From: a virus
Lineage: Duplodnaviria; Heunggongvirae; Uroviricota; Caudoviricetes
Reading direction: 5' to 3' (one strand)
DNA: 4,830 bases
IMG/VR virus record: IMGVR_UViG_3300029107_000017
In this document: one piece after another, positions 1 through 4,543 of the stretch
How the letters are laid out: each line of letters opens with the position of its first letter
How positions within the stretch are numbered: position 1 is the stretch's first letter
The notes under the pieces: model-generated
The model's input: the letters and a program-made list of their open reading frames with translations, nothing else
Told to the model about the DNA's origin: nothing
The model's database searches: none
Position numbers and translations under genes: made by a program

Positions 1-298
1 TATGGTCAACCTGACAACCCGGTGTCCTCAACGGGGAAGGAATAACCCCGCCATACTTACCGCCGCGCCATTTCGCGGAGTGCCACAACCGGAAGCGCAC
101 GGTCGAAGAAAATTTAACGACAGACTATCTATGAACCAGCAACCTCGCCGTGCGCTTTCGCGTTATGCTCTGACTTTTTATGGAAATACCCTTTCAGTAA
201 ACTGTCAGTGCCGGATGCTCACCCGTGTCCGGCGCACGTACTCCACCTTACCCGTGGAGAACTCCTTAATTACCAACCTTAGCTTCGTTGGTTAGCTA
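1..298 (-). other. Hairpin-rich non-coding region downstream of the ydfC-like gene; no supported ORF
   Basis: Seen in sequence: inverted repeats at 32-50 (CGGGG/CCCCG), 63-78 (CCGCG/CGCGG), 208-237 (GTGCCGGA/TCCGGC-G-CAC), 241-259 (CTCCAC/GTGGAG), 272-292 (ACCAAC/GTTGGT). No ATG-initiated ORF with an RBS on the - strand. In Qin-type prophages a long untranslated spacer precedes the dicF sRNA, but I could not find a DicF-like sequence in the window. Confidence 0.4.
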
Positions 299-904: not shown

Positions 905-965
905 GTAGAATTTAGAATAACCTAAGAATGATGGTCAAGCTTTTTGTGTAGAAAAACCTAAGTTT
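905..965 (-). promoter_or_regulatory. Putative leftward promoter for the ydfA-like operon, flanked by two operator-like palindromes
   Basis: Read on the - strand: TTGACC (rc of 933-938), 18-nt spacer, TAAATT (rc of 909-914). Palindromes TTTAG-aataac-CTAAG (911-926) and TGTAG-aaaaac-CTAAG (947-962) bracket the -35. No transcript data. Confidence 0.4.
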
Positions 966-1036: not shown

Positions 1037-1444
1037 TTATTTATTTGCGCTTCTTTTGCGAGCTTTGAGTAGTTCTTCAAAAAGTTTGTTGAAATTCTCA
1101 ACTCGAGCACGCATCTCTGACAACAGAGCCTTTTGCTCTGACTCAGGCAGTGCGTCGAACAGTTGAAGCAACTCTTTTTGATCTTCTGTCAGATTGACTG
1201 GCTGATTATCTGGGATCGGTTCGCCTGGTTGCTTATCTTCATCTCCAAAAAGAAGCCAGGTCGGCGAGCACTGAAGCGCCTGGCTCAGTGCGAATAATCT
1301 CTTCCCCGCTGGCTGTGTTTCATCTCTTTCCCATTGAGAAATTGTTACGTGAGCCACTTTGACCAGCTTACCTAATGCGGCCTGAGACAGTTTTAATTTT
1401 TTACGCCTGTATAAGAGGCGAGCACCGAAGGTTTCGTTTTTCAT
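1037..1444 (-). CDS. dicA: DicA-like prophage repressor (XRE-family HTH, 135 aa, no peptidase domain)
   Basis: ORF track 1037..1444 (-). Same length as E. coli DicA (135 aa) and shares long motifs with it as I recall the sequence: SQWER, LFALS..LQCSPTW.LFGDEDKQP, LPESEQ, EMRARV.NFNKLFEELLKAR. Divergent from a Cro-like gene. Confidence 0.85.
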   Translation of the reverse strand: MKNETFGARLLYRRKKLKLSQAALGKLVKVAHVTISQWERDETQPAGKRLFALSQALQCSPTWLLFGDEDKQPGEPIPDNQPVNLTEDQKELLQLFDALPESEQKALLSEMRARVENFNKLFEELLKARKRSANK

Positions 1445-1520
1445 ATTAGGTAATTCTAATTTCTCTTGACTTAGGTTTCTCTACAATCTAGTTTCCTTAG
1501 GAAAATCTAAGGAGTTCGAT
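1445..1520. promoter_or_regulatory. Divergent promoter/operator region between the repressor and the Cro-like gene
   Basis: Three YTTAG-N6-CTAAR sites: ATTAG-gtaatt-CTAAT (1445-1460), CTTAG-gtttct-CTACA (1470-1485), CTTAG-gaaaat-CTAAG (1496-1511), centres about 25 bp apart. Rightward elements: TTGACT (1466-1471), TACAAT (1482-1487), TAAGGAG (1508-1514). Leftward: TAGAAT (rc of 1453-1458) 8 nt before the repressor ATG. Confidence 0.55.
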
Positions 1521-1748
1521 ATGTTGAAAATTGATGCTATAGCGTTTTTTGGCAGCAAAACAAAGCTTGCCAATGTCGCAGGAGTTAGGCTGGCAAGCGT
1601 TGCAGCATGGGGGGAACTGGTTCCTGAAGGTCGCGCGATGCGCCTGCAAGAGGCATCCGGCGGGGAACTTCAGTACGACCCCAAAGTTTATGACGAATAT
1701 CGTAAGGCAAAGCGGGTGGGGCGGTTGAACAATGAAAATCACCCCTGA
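1521..1748 (+). CDS. dicC: Cro/DicC-like small HTH regulator (75 aa)
   Basis: ORF track 1521..1748 (+). TAAGGAG SD with a 6-nt spacer before the ATG. HTH-like segment GSKTKLANVAGVRLASVAAW. Divergent from the DicA-like repressor, as dicC is in Qin. Confidence 0.8.
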   Translation: MLKIDAIAFFGSKTKLANVAGVRLASVAAWGELVPEGRAMRLQEASGGELQYDPKVYDEYRKAKRVGRLNNENHP

Positions 1749-2283
1749 ACAGGTTTGTGAGGCTCTAGATGCCTGGGTATGCCGACCAGGAATGACACAG
1801 GAGCAGGCGACGATATTAATCACGGAAGCATTCTGGGCTCTGAAAGAACGCCCGAACATCGATGTTCAACGCGTCACGTTTAATGATGGCGAGGTTGATC
1901 AACGGGCGCTGGGCGTTAACCGGGTGAAGATATTCGAACGCTGGAAAGCTATCGACACCAGGGATAAGCGGGAAAAATTCACGGCGCTGATTCCGGCAAT
2001 TATGGAGGCTATCCGGATCAGCGATTTCAGGTTGTATTGTGAAATTACTGACGGAAAAAGCATTACGTACATGATCGCCGGGTTAAACAAAGAATATGGC
2101 GATGTGGTGGAGTCCGGGCTGCTTTTTGCGGATCCATCTGTTGTGGAACGTGAGACTGACGAGCTTATAGAAAAAGCTATTGCTTTCAAGCATGCGTATC
2201 GTCAGCAATATCAATATTACTTTGCAGATAAACAAATGTCTGCCAGGGGTTCGTATGAGTATCGATGCACTACGATGGGCTAA
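1732..2283 (+). CDS. YdaT-family protein (183 aa), CII-like regulator or putative toxin
   Basis: ORF track 1732..2283 (+). Overlaps the Cro-like gene's 3' end by 17 nt. MKI... N-terminus and the segment KREKFTALIPAIMEAI resemble Rac YdaT (QREKIQKLIPAILAIL) as I recall it. Confidence 0.7.
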   Translation: MKITPEQVCEALDAWVCRPGMTQEQATILITEAFWALKERPNIDVQRVTFNDGEVDQRALGVNRVKIFERWKAIDTRDKREKFTALIPAIMEAIRISDFRLYCEITDGKSITYMIAGLNKEYGDVVESGLLFADPSVVERETDELIEKAIAFKHAYRQQYQYYFADKQMSARGSYEYRCTTMG

Positions 2284-3295
2284 AAAGGTGAAAACCGGCA
2301 GTTCATCCAGTAAGTCAGTATTGACCTGGCTTGCTGATATGTGCGGTGCCGATTTGTGTGCATACCCGTCTGTATCTGCACTGGCAGAAGTAACGGAACT
2401 GAACAAAAAGACTGTGCAGGACAGCTTACGATACCTGATGGAGATTGGGTTAATTGTTGATACCGGTGAGAGAAAAGGCCGAACAAAGCAAATCGTGGTG
2501 TACCGACTTATCGGTGTAGAAGAAAGCGTTGCCGAGCCTGAATACACCCAAAAACGGGAGTCTTTAAAGGTGAGTAAAATTGGTGCTGTTAATAAAAACA
2601 GTACCGAAAATGGTTATGTTTCAGCACAAAACAGACCCAAAAACGGAACTCTTAGCTGCATGGAAAATAACCAAAGACACCCAAATTTTCCATCAAAGAC
2701 ACCCAAAAACGGATCACGGAACCCAAAGGAATCCAAAGATCTAAACCCCACACATAACGCACGCGAGAGTGCTCCGACCAGTGAGCAGGAAGTTTTGTCG
2801 TTACAGGCAGCACCCCTTGTATTCCTGGATGGCCTGAGCGAACCCATCGGAAAATTTCCGATGACCGATAGCTGGTATCCGTCACGGGATTTTCGACGAC
2901 GGGCTGCGTTGTGGGGGATGGCTTTGCCGGAGACAGAATTTACACCTGCTGAACTTGCCGCCTTCCGGGACTACTGGGCAGCGGAGGGGAAAGTGTTTAC
3001 GCAGATTCAGTGGGAGCAGAAATTCGCCCGTCACGTAAATCACGTCAGGGCGCAGGTTAAACCAGTCAGCAAGGGGGTAAACCATGCAGCAGCACCAGGT
3101 GGCACCGCATCACGGGCAGTTCAGGAAATTCGGGCAGCACGTGAGCAGTGGGAACGTGAAAACGGATTTATCAGCGACGGAAACAGCCTGGAAGCTGTGG
3201 GAACTCATGGGGGAGGTTTATTCGAACCGCTGGACCCAGAAGAACGGGGCCGCACCTTCGAAGCTCTGGATTGCACAGATTGGTGCGATGACTGA
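2255..3295 (+). CDS. Replication initiation protein: N-terminal HTH domain fused to a DnaT-like C-terminal domain (O-like)
   Basis: Track ORF 2180..3295 begins at a TTG. The in-frame ATG at 2255 has AGGGG 5 nt upstream and is the likely start (346 aa). N-terminus matches phage HTH initiator proteins. Residues around GKFPMTDSWYPSRDFRRRAALWGMALPE...YWAAEGKVFTQIQWEQKFAR closely parallel the E. coli DnaT C-terminal region as I recall it. Confidence 0.8.
   Translation: MSIDALRWAKKVKTGSSSSKSVLTWLADMCGADLCAYPSVSALAEVTELNKKTVQDSLRYLMEIGLIVDTGERKGRTKQIVVYRLIGVEESVAEPEYTQKRESLKVSKIGAVNKNSTENGYVSAQNRPKNGTLSCMENNQRHPNFPSKTPKNGSRNPKESKDLNPTHNARESAPTSEQEVLSLQAAPLVFLDGLSEPIGKFPMTDSWYPSRDFRRRAALWGMALPETEFTPAELAAFRDYWAAEGKVFTQIQWEQKFARHVNHVRAQVKPVSKGVNHAAAPGGTASRAVQEIRAAREQWERENGFISDGNSLEAVGTHGGGLFEPLDPEERGRTFEALDCTDWCDD
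2544..2730. repeat. Phased ACCCAAA(AACGG) direct repeats inside the initiator gene; candidate origin iterons
   Basis: ACCCAAA at 2546, 2635, 2679, 2701, 2721; three copies extend to (A/G)ACCCAAAAACGG(A/G). Spacings 89, 44, 22, 20 bp are near multiples of two helical turns. AT-rich stretch at about 2562-2632. The repeats also encode a Pro/Lys/Asn-rich interdomain linker. Confidence 0.4.
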
Positions 3296-3749
3296 GCAGC
3301 AAATCCGACAGGTCTGCCGCCAGTGCATGGACCGCTGCCGGGCGGGTGAAACATGGCCTCCGGACCTGGCTGAGTTTGTGGCGCTGATTTCTGAAAGCGG
3401 AGCCAATCCATTCGGTCTGACGGTGGATGCCGTGATGGAGGAGTACCGTCGCTGGCGCAACGAGTCCTGGCGATACGACGGGAGCGATAAATACCCGTGG
3501 TCTCAGCCTGTGCTGTATCACATTTGCCTCGAGATGCGTTCAAAGGGGATTGAGCGGCAGATGACCGAAGGGGAGTTAAAACGGCTTGCAGAACGGCAGC
3601 TGACGAAATGGGCAAAGCATGTTAGTAACGGCCTGAGTGTTCCGCCTATCCGGCGACAACTGGCAGCACCCAAACGTCCTGCGGGACCAACGCCAATTGA
3701 GTTGCTGAAACAGGAATATGAACGCCGGAAAGCGGCTGGGTTTGTCTGA
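3084..3749 (+). CDS. Lambda P-like replication protein (helicase loader), 221 aa
   Basis: ORF track 3084..3749 (+). ATG at 3084 preceded by AGGGGG (3072-3077) with a 6-nt spacer. Central and C-terminal segments (WPPDLAEFVAL; YPWSQPVLYHICLEMRSKGIERQMTEGELKRLAERQL) parallel lambda P (FLPSPGQFVAWC; YPWKSNAHYWLVTNLYQNMRANALTDAELRRKAADEL) as I recall it. Confidence 0.8.
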   Translation: MQQHQVAPHHGQFRKFGQHVSSGNVKTDLSATETAWKLWELMGEVYSNRWTQKNGAAPSKLWIAQIGAMTEQQIRQVCRQCMDRCRAGETWPPDLAEFVALISESGANPFGLTVDAVMEEYRRWRNESWRYDGSDKYPWSQPVLYHICLEMRSKGIERQMTEGELKRLAERQLTKWAKHVSNGLSVPPIRRQLAAPKRPAGPTPIELLKQEYERRKAAGFV

Positions 3750-3781: not shown

Positions 3782-4543
3782 ATGGAGACTGTTTTTGACG
3801 CACTGAAAGCGATGGGAAAAGCCACGTCGGTAGAGCTGGCTGCGCGACTTGATATCAGTCGTGAAGAAGTGCTGAACGAGCTGTGGGAACTGAAAAAGGC
3901 TGGCTTCGTTGATAAAAGCGTATACACCTGGCGTGTGGCTTATAACAACGTTCAGCAGGAACAGCCAGCGCCGGCAGAACTGTCGGAAGAAACCACCACG
4001 GCAACAGTCGCTAAAATTTCGGAGAGCGATTTAACTGCGACGATTGAACAACGTGGACCACAAACGGCGGATGAACTGGCTACGCTGTCCGGTACCACAT
4101 CCCGCAAAGTGGCTTCAACGCTGGCAATGGCAATCAGCAAAGGTCGTCTGATTCGTGTAAACCAGAACGGTAAATTTCGTTACTGCATACCGGGTGATAA
4201 TTTACCAGCCGAGCCGAAAGTTGAATCGGTAGCGGAAACCGATGGTAAAGCCTTTCCTCAGCCAGCAGGTGTTGCGTTACCAGTACAGGAAGTTGCAACA
4301 CAGGAATATATTAAAACAGAAACTGTGGCTGATATTGTGCAATCGTTGCCATCGTTTACTGAAACGCGAGCGGATGACCTGGTTTTACCATCGCTGCATA
4401 TGGCAAACCGCGAATTGCGTCGGGCGAAAAATCATGTCCAGAAGTGGGAGCGTGTCTGCGCCGCGCTGCGGGAACTGAACAAGCACCGGGATATTGTCCG
4501 ACAGATTGTCGATTCCTCCAGTCGTATTGTGTCGGAAAAGTGA
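3782..4543 (+). CDS. Prophage protein of unknown function with two winged-helix-like modules and a charged helical C-terminus (253 aa)
   Basis: ORF track 3782..4543 (+). GGGAGG (3770-3775) with a 6-nt spacer before the ATG. Residues about 4-51 and 84-135 share a G.T..EL....(S/T)R..V...L.....G pattern, suggesting an internal duplication. Confidence 0.8.

What the first reader, a model, noticed from the sequence alone, without database searches (positions are those of the whole stretch)
1521..2283. Cro-like and YdaT-family genes are translationally linked: CII analog or toxin-antitoxin pair
The YdaT-family gene starts 17 nt inside the Cro-like gene and has only a weak SD, suggesting coupled translation. 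Rac YdaS/YdaT has been described both as a toxin-antitoxin pair and as Cro/CII analogs. At 183 aa this protein is longer than Rac YdaT (about 140 aa as I recall), so the C-terminal extension may add function.
Basis: partly seen in the sequence, partly recalled or inferred. Interest (0 to 1): 0.4.

Follow-up and report, generated by a model that had tools for sequence, protein, structure and literature searches.

The report
Prophage cro and cII-like regulator pair
These two overlapping genes are the ordinary Cro-like (DicC-type) and CII-like (YdaT-family) switch regulators of a common E. coli lambdoid prophage and not a toxin-antitoxin pair, and the protein's extra length comes mostly from internal insertions plus a poorly conserved tail created where two phage modules were joined.

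Summary

The pair lies between a DicA-type repressor and O/P-like replication genes, the cro-cII position. This holds in every related locus examined. Published work on Rac and CP-933P shows that YdaT is a DNA-binding CII analogue and not a toxin.

The ydaT start codon sits inside a TGA-N10-TCA dyad (1725-1742). That dyad is conserved in 13 of 15 independent junctions and matches the footprinted YdaT-box.

The "C-terminal extension" idea is mostly wrong. Of the 43 extra residues, 13 are in the DNA-binding domain, about 21 in the helical C-terminal half and 9 in the tail. Residues 162-183 begin exactly at a mosaic breakpoint (2214/2215), have low model confidence (pLDDT about 59 falling below 50) and vary.

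Translational coupling is plausible from geometry only. An SD-like G-tract exists, and no significant RNA structure does.

Verdict: ordinary, essentially known biology, low interest.

The parts
1037..1444 (-). DicA-type CI-like repressor gene (135 aa), divergent from cro
   Evidence: NCBIfam NF007257 'transcriptional repressor DicA' 241.6 bits (cutoff 101), full length 1-135/135. Pfam HTH_3 E 4e-14.
1446..1510 (.). OR-like operator region: three copies of a TAGAAnAACCTAAG-type motif (1446-1464, 1469-1490, 1496-1510) between the divergent repressor and cro genes
   Evidence: Inverted repeats I2, I3, I4, I7 and I14 pair these with the sites at 906-963. Their operator role is inferred from position.
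906..963 (.). OL-like operator pair (913-926, 949-962) next to a minus-strand promoter-like site (938..909) upstream of the ydfA/B/C-like genes
   Evidence: Direct repeat D7, 93% identical. Promoter-like TTGACC-18-TAAATT. Function inferred.
1521..1748 (+). DicC-subfamily Cro analogue (75 aa), with a strong SD (AAGGAG) 6 nt upstream
   Evidence: NCBIfam NF007282 DicC 164.9 bits (cutoff 130), 1-75/75. Pfam P22_Cro E 3e-13; YdaS_toxin below cutoff. phrog_409 transcriptional regulator.
1714..1724 (+). G-rich SD-like tract GGGTGGGGCGG upstream of the ydaT start, inside the cro coding sequence
   Evidence: RNAduplex with the 16S 3' end -10 kcal/mol, top 4% of window positions.
1725..1742 (.). YdaT-box-like dyad TTGAAC-AATGAA-AATCAC (core TGA-N10-TCA) with the ydaT ATG in the spacer. 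It also lies within the last eight codons of cro.
   Evidence: Same register as the DNase-footprinted Rac YdaT-box ATGATT-CATGAA-AATCAA (PMC11879457) and the CP-933P box TTGATT-N6-AATCAA (PMC9986795). Exact TGA-N10-TCA is found at the ydaT start in 13 of 15 distinct junctions, against a background of 5.3e-4 per nt. It is retained when the ATG shifts by 3 nt in L099-L101. Binding here is inferred, not shown.
1732..2016 (+). YdaT-family protein, residues 1-95: POU-like helix-turn-helix DNA-binding domain. The predicted recognition helix is residues 57-73 (nt 1900-1950), with invariant R70 and W71.
2017..2214 (+). YdaT-family protein, residues 96-161: helical C-terminal half (predicted helices 99-106, 111-130 and 135-172), presumed oligomerisation region, ending in the conserved motif YRQQYQ
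2215..2283 (+). Variable tail, residues 162-183, encoded by sequence that belongs to the downstream replication module. Its last 29 nt overlap the O-like gene.
   Evidence: Base-by-base identity to E. albertii L005 is near-complete through 2214 and random after it. Nucleotide matches to other phages stop at 2214. Relatives end QKAGWNYEPSFC (173 aa) or RCDQ (165 aa). pLDDT is 59 for residues 161-170 and 41/34 after that. There are 6 nonsynonymous and 3 synonymous variant codons in 162-174 against 38 and 71 in the core.
2255..3295 (+). O-like replication initiator with a DnaT DNA-binding domain
   Evidence: Pfam DnaT E 6e-17. phrog_1032 replication initiation protein E 5e-89. RefSeq model WP_000020556.1.
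3288..3749 (+). Lambda P-like helicase loader
   Evidence: Pfam Phage_lambda_P E 1e-16. phrog_109. The RefSeq start corresponds to window 3288.

Best explanation
The region is the rightward early operon of a lambdoid E. coli prophage immunity module. A DicA-type repressor (1037-1444, minus strand) faces a DicC-type Cro analogue (1521-1748). A YdaT-family protein (1732-2283) follows and plays the role that CII plays in phage lambda. O- and P-like replication genes come next.

The YdaT-family protein is a transcription factor with an N-terminal POU-like helix-turn-helix domain and a helical C-terminal oligomerisation part.

By analogy with its two studied homologues, it most likely binds the dyad that surrounds its own start codon (1725-1742). 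From there it would stimulate a leftward promoter that raises repressor synthesis, favouring or stabilising lysogeny.

Shown here: gene models, family membership by sequence and fold, synteny, conservation of the dyad, and the mosaic origin of the tail.

Inferred from homologues: DNA binding at the dyad, promoter activation and oligomerisation.

The 17-nt overlap reflects dense packing. The cro C-terminus, the ydaT ribosome site, the ydaT start and the dyad all share about 30 bp. Some translational coupling is plausible but unproven.

Any toxicity on overexpression would be a side effect of a DNA-binding regulator, as reported for Rac YdaT and lambda CII. It would not be a toxin-antitoxin function.
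For: Family membership. Pfam YdaT_toxin PF06254 scores 26.5 bits against a cutoff of 21. phrog_163 'CII-like transcriptional activator' gives E 8e-42. An independent profile-profile match to Rac-type YdaT gives 96.8%, E 2.7e-10. The profile hits PDB 8bt1 and 3c4r.

Synteny. The order repressor / cro / ydaT / replication genes is found in E. coli, Klebsiella and Salmonella loci, in a metagenomic contig, and in viable phages. Two phage records annotate this same protein type as cII.

Dyad. It is conserved at the ydaT start in 13 of 15 junctions, independently of the ATG register.

Literature. YdaS/YdaT of CP-933P are Cro/CII analogues and not a TA system, and YdaT activates PRE933P (PMC8630535). 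YdaT is a tetrameric POU-like DNA binder of TTGATT-N6-AATCAA (PMC9986795). Rac YdaT binds a box overlapping its own ATG and activates the reverse promoter PracR4 29-fold (PMC11879457).
Against: The match to the full 12-base published box has 3 mismatches and is not significant by count alone: 3 matches found against 2.75 expected in the window. Only its position and cross-lineage conservation support it.

No leftward sigma-70-like promoter with at least 8 of 12 matches was found between 1500 and 1800, so the target promoter is unlocated.

Identity to the characterised homologues is only 22-25%, and the C-terminal half does not align significantly with them. Oligomeric state and regulatory output may therefore differ.

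Nothing in this subfamily has been tested experimentally, as far as the searchable literature shows.
Confidence: 0.85

Rival explanations
1. The two genes form a type II toxin-antitoxin pair. The YdaT-family protein would be a toxin and the Cro-like protein its antitoxin and autorepressor, or the reverse.
For: The legacy Pfam names are 'YdaT_toxin' and 'YdaS_toxin', and the RefSeq product name is 'toxin YdaT family protein'. There is a small overlapping two-gene arrangement. Ectopic expression of Rac ydaS/ydaT is toxic (PMC5700377, PMC5700373, PMC11879457).
Against: The fold is a helix-turn-helix transcription factor and not a toxin fold. There are no PADLOC hits.

The Cro-like partner is DicC-type and fails the YdaS_toxin cutoff. 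The same ydaT type is found behind unrelated cro types, and the same cro type is found in front of at least three other ydaT types (Rac-type, CP-933P-type, Klebsiella). That is not expected of a co-evolving toxin-antitoxin pair.

The pair is always embedded between a repressor and replication genes. The literature reports no toxicity for CP-933P YdaT and explicitly rejects TA status (PMC8630535, PMC5917428).
Confidence: 0.03
2. ydaT translation depends obligatorily on translation of cro. This strict translational coupling, by termination-reinitiation or by unfolding of an inhibitory mRNA structure, would fix the Cro:YdaT ratio.
For: There is a 17-nt stop/start overlap. 11 of 15 distinct junctions in the family overlap by +4 to +17 nt. 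There is no canonical AGGAGG in front of ydaT.
Against: An SD-like G-tract is present at suitable spacing.

The local hairpin that would mask it is no more stable than shuffled sequence (z -0.82, with 38 of 200 shuffles at least as stable) and is not conserved in other lineages.

Serratia and K-12 Rac homologues have gaps of 10-22 nt with their own SD, so coupling is not a family requirement. The recurrence of exactly 17 nt is explained by the cro stop TGA being formed by ydaT codons 5-6 (xxT GAA, with E6 invariant).
Confidence: 0.3
3. The 22-residue tail (162-183) is a functional addition, for example a protease-recognition tag or a partner-binding peptide tuned to this replication module. 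It would not be a neutral by-product.
For: All 81 CDS of the 183-aa type keep the full reading frame. This form is abundant: cluster P0001 has 1504 members, and the module occurs in 908 of 5426 complete E. coli genomes. A disordered C-terminal tail that controls proteolysis is known for lambda CII (my own knowledge, not tested here).
Against: The tail starts exactly at a mosaic breakpoint and is replaced by unrelated 12-aa or 4-aa tails in relatives. pLDDT is 59 falling to 34. Codons 162-174 have 6 nonsynonymous and 3 synonymous variant codons, against 38 and 71 in the core (small numbers). Its last 9 codons are constrained by the overlapping O-like gene and not necessarily by ydaT.
Confidence: 0.15

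Closest known systems
YdaT of cryptic prophage CP-933P, E. coli O157:H7 (PDB 8bt1; PMC9986795, PMC8630535)
   Different: About 25% identity. The window protein is 183 aa against 141 aa. It has a longer alpha2-alpha3 loop and a C-terminal half predicted as two helices (111-130 and 135-172), where 8bt1 has one 29-residue helix. The dyad is TTGAAC-N6-AATCAC, 3 mismatches from the published box. The partner repressor is DicA-type, not PaaR2, and no paaA2-parE2 module is present.
YdaT of the Rac prophage, E. coli K-12 (b1358; PMC11879457)
   Same: Same family: hhalign 96.8% over residues 1-95. The R-W pair of the recognition helix is conserved. The box overlaps the gene's own start codon in the same register.
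   Different: 22% identity and 140 aa. In K-12 a 22-nt gap with its own SD separates ydaS and ydaT, so there is no overlap. The upstream gene is YdaS (98 aa), unrelated to the DicC-type cro here. Rac YdaT's host target (rcsA) and its control by OxyR cannot be assumed here.
Lambda CII (Pfam Phage_CII)
   Same: Same position in the immunity region, immediately after cro and before O. It is likewise a helix-turn-helix activator expected to drive repressor synthesis from a leftward promoter near its own 5' end. This is analogy, as argued in PMC5917428, PMC8630535 and PMC11879457.
   Different: No sequence-family membership: there is no Phage_CII hit. Lambda CII recognises direct repeats TTGC-N6-TTGC. 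These are not enriched here and are absent from 1500-1800. This family uses an inverted repeat.
DicA/DicC switch of the Qin prophage, E. coli K-12
   Same: The repressor and the Cro analogue are full-length members of the DicA and DicC NCBIfam subfamilies. ydfA/ydfB/ydfC-like genes follow the repressor, as in Qin.
   Different: Here the module is complete, with ydaT, O-like and P-like genes downstream of dicC. No DicF RNA lies within the window.

Membership tests
YdaT family (Pfam PF06254) | Sequence match above the curated threshold | tested here: met
   26.5 bits against a gathering cutoff of 21, residues 59-131. An independent profile-profile match to Rac-type YdaT gives 96.8%, E 2.7e-10. 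The profile hits PDB 8bt1 at E 5e-4.
YdaT family (Pfam PF06254) | N-terminal POU-like helix-turn-helix domain, as in PDB 8bt1 and 3c4r | tested here: met
YdaT family (Pfam PF06254) | Conserved Arg-Trp in the recognition helix (Rac R57/W58) | tested here: met
   R70 and W71 are invariant in 44 aligned family members and align with Rac H-R-W. The role of these residues is taken from PMC11879457.
YdaT family (Pfam PF06254) | Single long C-terminal helix that forms a tetrameric four-helix bundle | tested here: inconclusive
YdaT family (Pfam PF06254) | Inverted-repeat YdaT-box at the cro/ydaT junction | tested here: met
   A TGA-N10-TCA core lies at 1726-1741 with the ATG in the spacer. The same is seen in 13 of 15 distinct junctions, against a background of 5.3e-4 per nt. 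The full box has 3 mismatches to TTGATT-N6-AATCAA. Actual binding is not testable here.
YdaT family (Pfam PF06254) | Gene lies between a cro analogue and replication genes, divergent from a repressor | tested here: met
   Seen in the window and in all related loci examined.
Lambda CII family (Pfam Phage_CII) | Sequence membership, and TTGC-N6-TTGC direct-repeat target | tested here: not met
   No Phage_CII hit at E 0.01 or better. TTGC-N6-TTGC is not enriched (5 found against 7.6 expected) and none lies in 1500-1800. This is a functional analogue only.
Type II toxin-antitoxin system | Toxin with a recognised toxin fold or activity; autonomous, co-evolving two-gene module | tested here: not met
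   The fold is that of a transcription factor. There are no PADLOC hits. cro and ydaT types assort independently across loci. The pair is always embedded in an immunity region. Neutralisation by protein-protein binding is not testable here.
DicC subfamily (NCBIfam NF007282), for the 75-aa protein | Full-length match above the curated cutoff | tested here: met
   164.9 bits against a cutoff of 130, 1-75/75. Pfam P22_Cro E 3e-13.
YdaS family (Pfam PF15943), for the 75-aa protein | Match above the curated cutoff | tested here: not met
   18.8 bits against a cutoff of 30.
Translationally coupled gene pair | Stop/start overlap, no independent ribosome-binding site, and dependence on upstream translation | tested here: inconclusive
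   The overlap is present. An SD-like G-tract is also present. The masking hairpin is not significant or conserved. Dependence on upstream translation needs an experiment.

The most novel reading that the evidence does not exclude
This 165-183-aa branch of the YdaT family may have replaced the single tetramerising helix of Rac and CP-933P YdaT with a ROP-like helical hairpin. It would then assemble differently, for example as a dimer through a two-hairpin four-helix bundle. In that case it would bind only the single dyad at its own start codon and would not bridge two operators. That would be a CII analogue with a different oligomeric logic.

In addition, the family-wide placement of the binding dyad over the gene's own start codon would mean that each YdaT protein marks and regulates from its own 5' end. 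This would explain why the box and the gene travel together through mosaic recombination.
Probability: 0.25. Interest if true: 0.3.

Novelty: new member of a known kind. Interest (0 to 1): 0.15.

Why it matters
It matters little beyond correct annotation. The 'toxin YdaT family protein' label carried by this gene in hundreds of E. coli genomes is misleading, and this copy should be read as a CII-like lysogeny regulator paired with a DicC-type Cro. About 750 of 5426 complete genomes carry the immunity module, and 908 carry this replication module.

Two small points may be useful to people working on lambdoid switches. First, the YdaT-box dyad sits over the ydaT start codon throughout the family, from Serratia to E. 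coli. Second, this branch has a longer, probably hairpin-shaped C-terminal oligomerisation region that has never been characterised.

The prophage type (PPompW) is a landing site for Stx2a phages in STEC. Its immunity switch therefore has some indirect relevance to Shiga-toxin phage biology.

Tried and rejected
1. RNA-structure-mediated coupling. The hairpin 1718-1745, which places the AUG in its loop, is no better than shuffles (z -0.82) and is absent in other lineages. Rejected as evidence.

2. Counting matches to the published box TTGATT-N6-AATCAA. There were 3 matches with 3 or fewer mismatches against 2.75 expected. This is uninformative on its own, so I used positional conservation across lineages instead.

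3. Search for a leftward PRE-like promoter at 1500-1800. Nothing reached 8 of 12. A weak TACGAT at 1704-1699 (minus strand) would put the dyad centre near -41.5. It lies in conserved cro coding sequence and was picked after the fact, so it is not claimed.

4. Rfam scan of the window for DicF or other RNAs: no hits at E up to 1.

5. Single-sequence PDB search: only weak hits, E 0.06-0.09. A profile and a fold search were needed.

6. BFVD viral fold search: nothing significant.

7. Viral-contig scan for diversity: it returned only near-identical 183-aa forms. These were used for tail variation only.

8. Lambda-type TTGC-N6-TTGC repeats: not enriched.

9. Programmed frameshift producing a Cro-YdaT fusion. 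Two single-member database fusions exist (P0026, P0033). ydaT is in the +1 frame with no slippery heptamer, so these are most likely sequencing errors. Not pursued.

Full report
**1. What is in the window**

The 4830-base window is the immunity and replication module of a lambdoid E. coli prophage. From left to right it contains:

- ydfC-, ydfB- and ydfA(DUF1391)-like small genes on the minus strand (299-517, 547-684, 677-886).
- A 135-aa DicA-type repressor on the minus strand (1037-1444).
- A 75-aa Cro analogue on the plus strand (1521-1748).
- A 183-aa YdaT-family gene (1732-2283).
- An O-like initiator with a DnaT domain (2255-3295).
- A lambda P-like loader (3288-3749).
- A DUF1627 gene (3782-4543).

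Positions 1000-2400 are 98.6% identical to the 'PPompW' prophages of Shiga-toxin-producing E. coli. They are found at 80% coverage or more in 749 of 5426 complete E. coli genomes. RefSeq annotates the same two gene models, as 'Cro/CI family transcriptional regulator' and 'toxin YdaT family protein'.

**2. The observation**

The coordinates, the 17-nt overlap (1732-1748) and the 183-aa length are correct. K-12 Rac YdaT is indeed 140 aa.

The statement that ydaT has only a weak Shine-Dalgarno sequence is only partly right. There is no AGGAGG, but a G-rich tract (GGGTGGGGCGG, 1714-1724) can pair with the 16S 3' end. The RNAduplex energy is -10 kcal/mol, which is in the top 4% of positions in the window.

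**3. Family membership**

That test is not met, because similarity is found at every level:

- Pfam YdaT_toxin is above its gathering score, 26.5 against 21 bits.
- PHROGs places the protein in phrog_163, 'CII-like transcriptional activator', at E 8e-42.
- A profile built only from window-type sequences matches a profile of Rac-type YdaT at 96.8% probability, E 2.7e-10.
- The same profile hits the solved YdaT structures 8bt1 and 3c4r.
- An AlphaFold2 model from a 44-sequence alignment has mean pLDDT 84.
- R70 and W71 in the predicted recognition helix are invariant across the family. They correspond to Rac R57 and W58. R57 is needed for DNA binding (tested as the H56A R57A double mutant) and W58 maintains the fold (PMC11879457).

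The sequence-level homology covers residues 1-95 only. The C-terminal half does not align significantly with Rac-type proteins.

The 75-aa partner is a full-length DicC-subfamily protein, NF007282 at 164.9 bits against a cutoff of 130. It is not a YdaS orthologue, since YdaS_toxin scores 18.8 bits against a cutoff of 30.

**4. CII analogue or toxin-antitoxin pair**

The published record has already addressed this for two homologues.

- Jobling argued from genetic context that Rac ydaS/ydaT are cro/cII equivalents (PMC5917428).
- Jurenas et al. showed in vivo that CP-933P YdaS and YdaT behave as Cro and CII analogues. YdaT activates a leftward promoter, PRE933P, and is not toxic (PMC8630535).
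- Prolic-Kalinsek et al. solved the structure. They showed a tetramer that binds TTGATT-N6-AATCAA at the ydaS/ydaT junction (PMC9986795).
- Wons et al. showed that Rac YdaT binds ATGATT-CATGAA-AATCAA, whose spacer holds the ydaT start codon. It activates the reverse promoter PracR4 29-fold and so raises racR expression. They linked toxicity on overexpression to YdaT's activity as a transcription factor, which includes raising the host regulator RcsA (PMC11879457).

My results place the window's gene in this frame:

- It has a transcription-factor fold.
- It has no hit to defence or TA models.
- The order repressor / cro / ydaT / replication genes is found in E. coli, Klebsiella and Salmonella loci, in a metagenomic contig, and in viable phages.
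- Cro types and YdaT types assort independently. The DicC-type cro precedes window-type, Rac-type, CP-933P-type and Klebsiella-type ydaT. Window-type relatives follow unrelated HTH_3- or YdaS-like cro genes. This is expected for mosaic phage regulators and not for a co-evolving toxin-antitoxin pair.

**5. A conserved dyad over the start codon**

I compared 15 distinct cro/ydaT junctions. In 13 of them the ydaT start codon lies in the spacer of an exact TGA-N10-TCA dyad. The background density of that pattern in the same loci is 5.3e-4 per nt.

| Locus | Dyad |
|---|---|
| Window (1725-1742) | TTGAAC-AATGAA-AATCAC |
| Serratia L015 | TTGATA-TATGGA-AATCAA |
| Serratia L016 | ATGATT-TATGGA-AATCAA |
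| Phage Tritos (L105) | TTGATT-CATGAA-AATCAA, exactly the published CP-933P box |
| Citrobacter L012 | GTGAAC-AATGAT-GATCAG |
| Soil MAG L013 | CTGAAC-AATGGT-GATCAG |

In three Salmonella loci the protein is one codon shorter and the ATG has moved 3 nt, yet the dyad GTGAAC-AACCAT-GATCAC is intact. The dyad therefore keeps its own register and is a DNA-level element. It is not just a consequence of coding for Met-Lys-Ile. It also helps to explain why Ile3 (always the codon ATC) is invariant and why codon 4 always begins with A.

By count alone, the window's match to the 12-base published box is not significant. The argument rests on position and conservation. Binding was not tested.

I could not locate the target promoter. 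Nothing reaches 8 of 12 sigma-70 matches on the minus strand between 1500 and 1800. That is unsurprising for an activator-dependent promoter, but it leaves this step inferred.

**6. The overlap and coupling**

The 17-nt overlap recurs wherever a DicC-type cro is present, with four different YdaT types. The reason is that the cro stop codon TGA is formed by ydaT codons 5-6 (xxT GAA), and Glu6 is invariant.

Other lineages overlap by 14, 7 or 4 nt. Serratia has a gap of 10-11 nt and K-12 Rac a gap of 22 nt, each with its own SD.

The small hairpin that would hide the G-tract is no more stable than shuffled sequence (z -0.82) and is not conserved.

Coupling is therefore plausible from geometry and common in the family. 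It is not required by the family and is not demonstrated here.

**7. The extra length**

Against Rac YdaT, the 43 additional residues are distributed as follows:

- 13 in the DNA-binding domain, 10 of them in the alpha2-alpha3 loop. The crystallographers already described this loop as varying from 9 to 23 residues (PMC9986795).
- About 21 inserted in the helical C-terminal half.
- 9 in the tail.

The alignment of the C-terminal half is not statistically supported, so the positions of the insertions there are approximate.

**8. The tail is a mosaic junction product**

Close relatives are mostly 173 aa and end QKAGWNYEPSFC. More distant relatives are 165 aa and end RCDQ. All share the sequence up to YRQQYQ at residue 161.

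At the nucleotide level, identity to an E. albertii locus is 97-100% in 30-nt bins from about 1622. The base-by-base alignment shows near-identity through 2214 and random-level identity after it. Matches to phages mEp460, HannyBb and PhiR42_1 also stop at 2214.

The 183-aa form accompanies this particular O-like/DnaT module in every record sampled among 908 genomes.

The tail has low model confidence, with pLDDT 59 for residues 161-170 and 41 and 34 after that. Among 81 coding sequences of the 183-aa type, codons 162-174 carry 6 nonsynonymous and 3 synonymous variant codons, against 38 and 71 in the core. The numbers are small, so this is only suggestive. The last 29 nt also encode the start of the O-like gene.

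The simplest reading is that the tail is whatever the ydaT frame runs into after the recombination joint. A role in protein stability, as for the tail of lambda CII (my own knowledge), is not excluded.

**9. Verdict**

This is a standard cro/cII-type regulator pair of a very common prophage. It is correctly recognised by PHROGs and by some phage annotators as cII-like, and it is labelled 'toxin' in RefSeq only for historical reasons.

Its preferred alternative, the Cro/CII analogue, is right, and the TA alternative is not supported. The 'C-terminal extension' idea is largely explained away.

The subfamily itself has not been studied experimentally as far as I could find. It is therefore a new member of a known kind, with a possibly different oligomerisation region. 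Interest is low.

Noticed in passing
window 906-963 and 1446-1510: Repeated TAGAAnAACCTAAG-type motif. Two copies lie next to a minus-strand promoter-like site upstream of the ydfA/B/C-like genes. Three inverted copies lie between the divergent dicA-like and dicC-like genes. This looks like an OL/OR operator set for the DicA-type repressor.
   Followed up: partly
window ~1610-1625 (inside the cro-like gene): A second mosaic breakpoint. In several relatives (L003, L009) identity is low over the 5' half of cro, which encodes the HTH, and rises to about 90% from about 1622 onward. The operator-specifying half of cro therefore travels with the repressor, and the 3' half travels with ydaT.
   Followed up: partly
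window 1746-1748 / ydaT codons 5-6: The cro stop codon TGA is created by ydaT codons CCT GAA. Glu6 is invariant in the family. This explains why exactly 17 nt of overlap recurs with four different ydaT types behind DicC-type cro genes.
   Followed up: yes
proteins P0044, P0045, P0049; loci L010 (E. coli) and L011 (Shigella flexneri): Many database entries are YdaT N-terminal domains truncated or fused after about residue 93 to unrelated downstream proteins such as DUF968. This is consistent with deletions in decaying prophages. Single-member Cro-YdaT fusions (P0026, P0033) look like frameshift errors.
   Followed up: no
loci L007, L008, L009; protein P0055: Contigs 91-92% identical to this E. 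coli prophage gene are filed under Collinsella, Bacillota and Veillonella MAGs, and one protein is filed under Rhodococcus. These are probably mis-binned or contaminating Enterobacteriaceae phage DNA.
   Followed up: no
window 1-298: In Qin-like prophages dicF and dicB follow ydfC. Rfam finds no DicF or any other RNA family in the window at E up to 1. The 97-aa plus-strand ORF at 2-295 was not tested against any library.
   Followed up: partly
window 3782-4543: The DUF1627 gene is intact here (253 aa, Pfam E 3e-96). It is annotated as frameshifted in the 98.6%-identical E. coli E2865 prophage. It has an N-terminal winged-helix-like region with weak TrmB/MarR-type hits.
   Followed up: no
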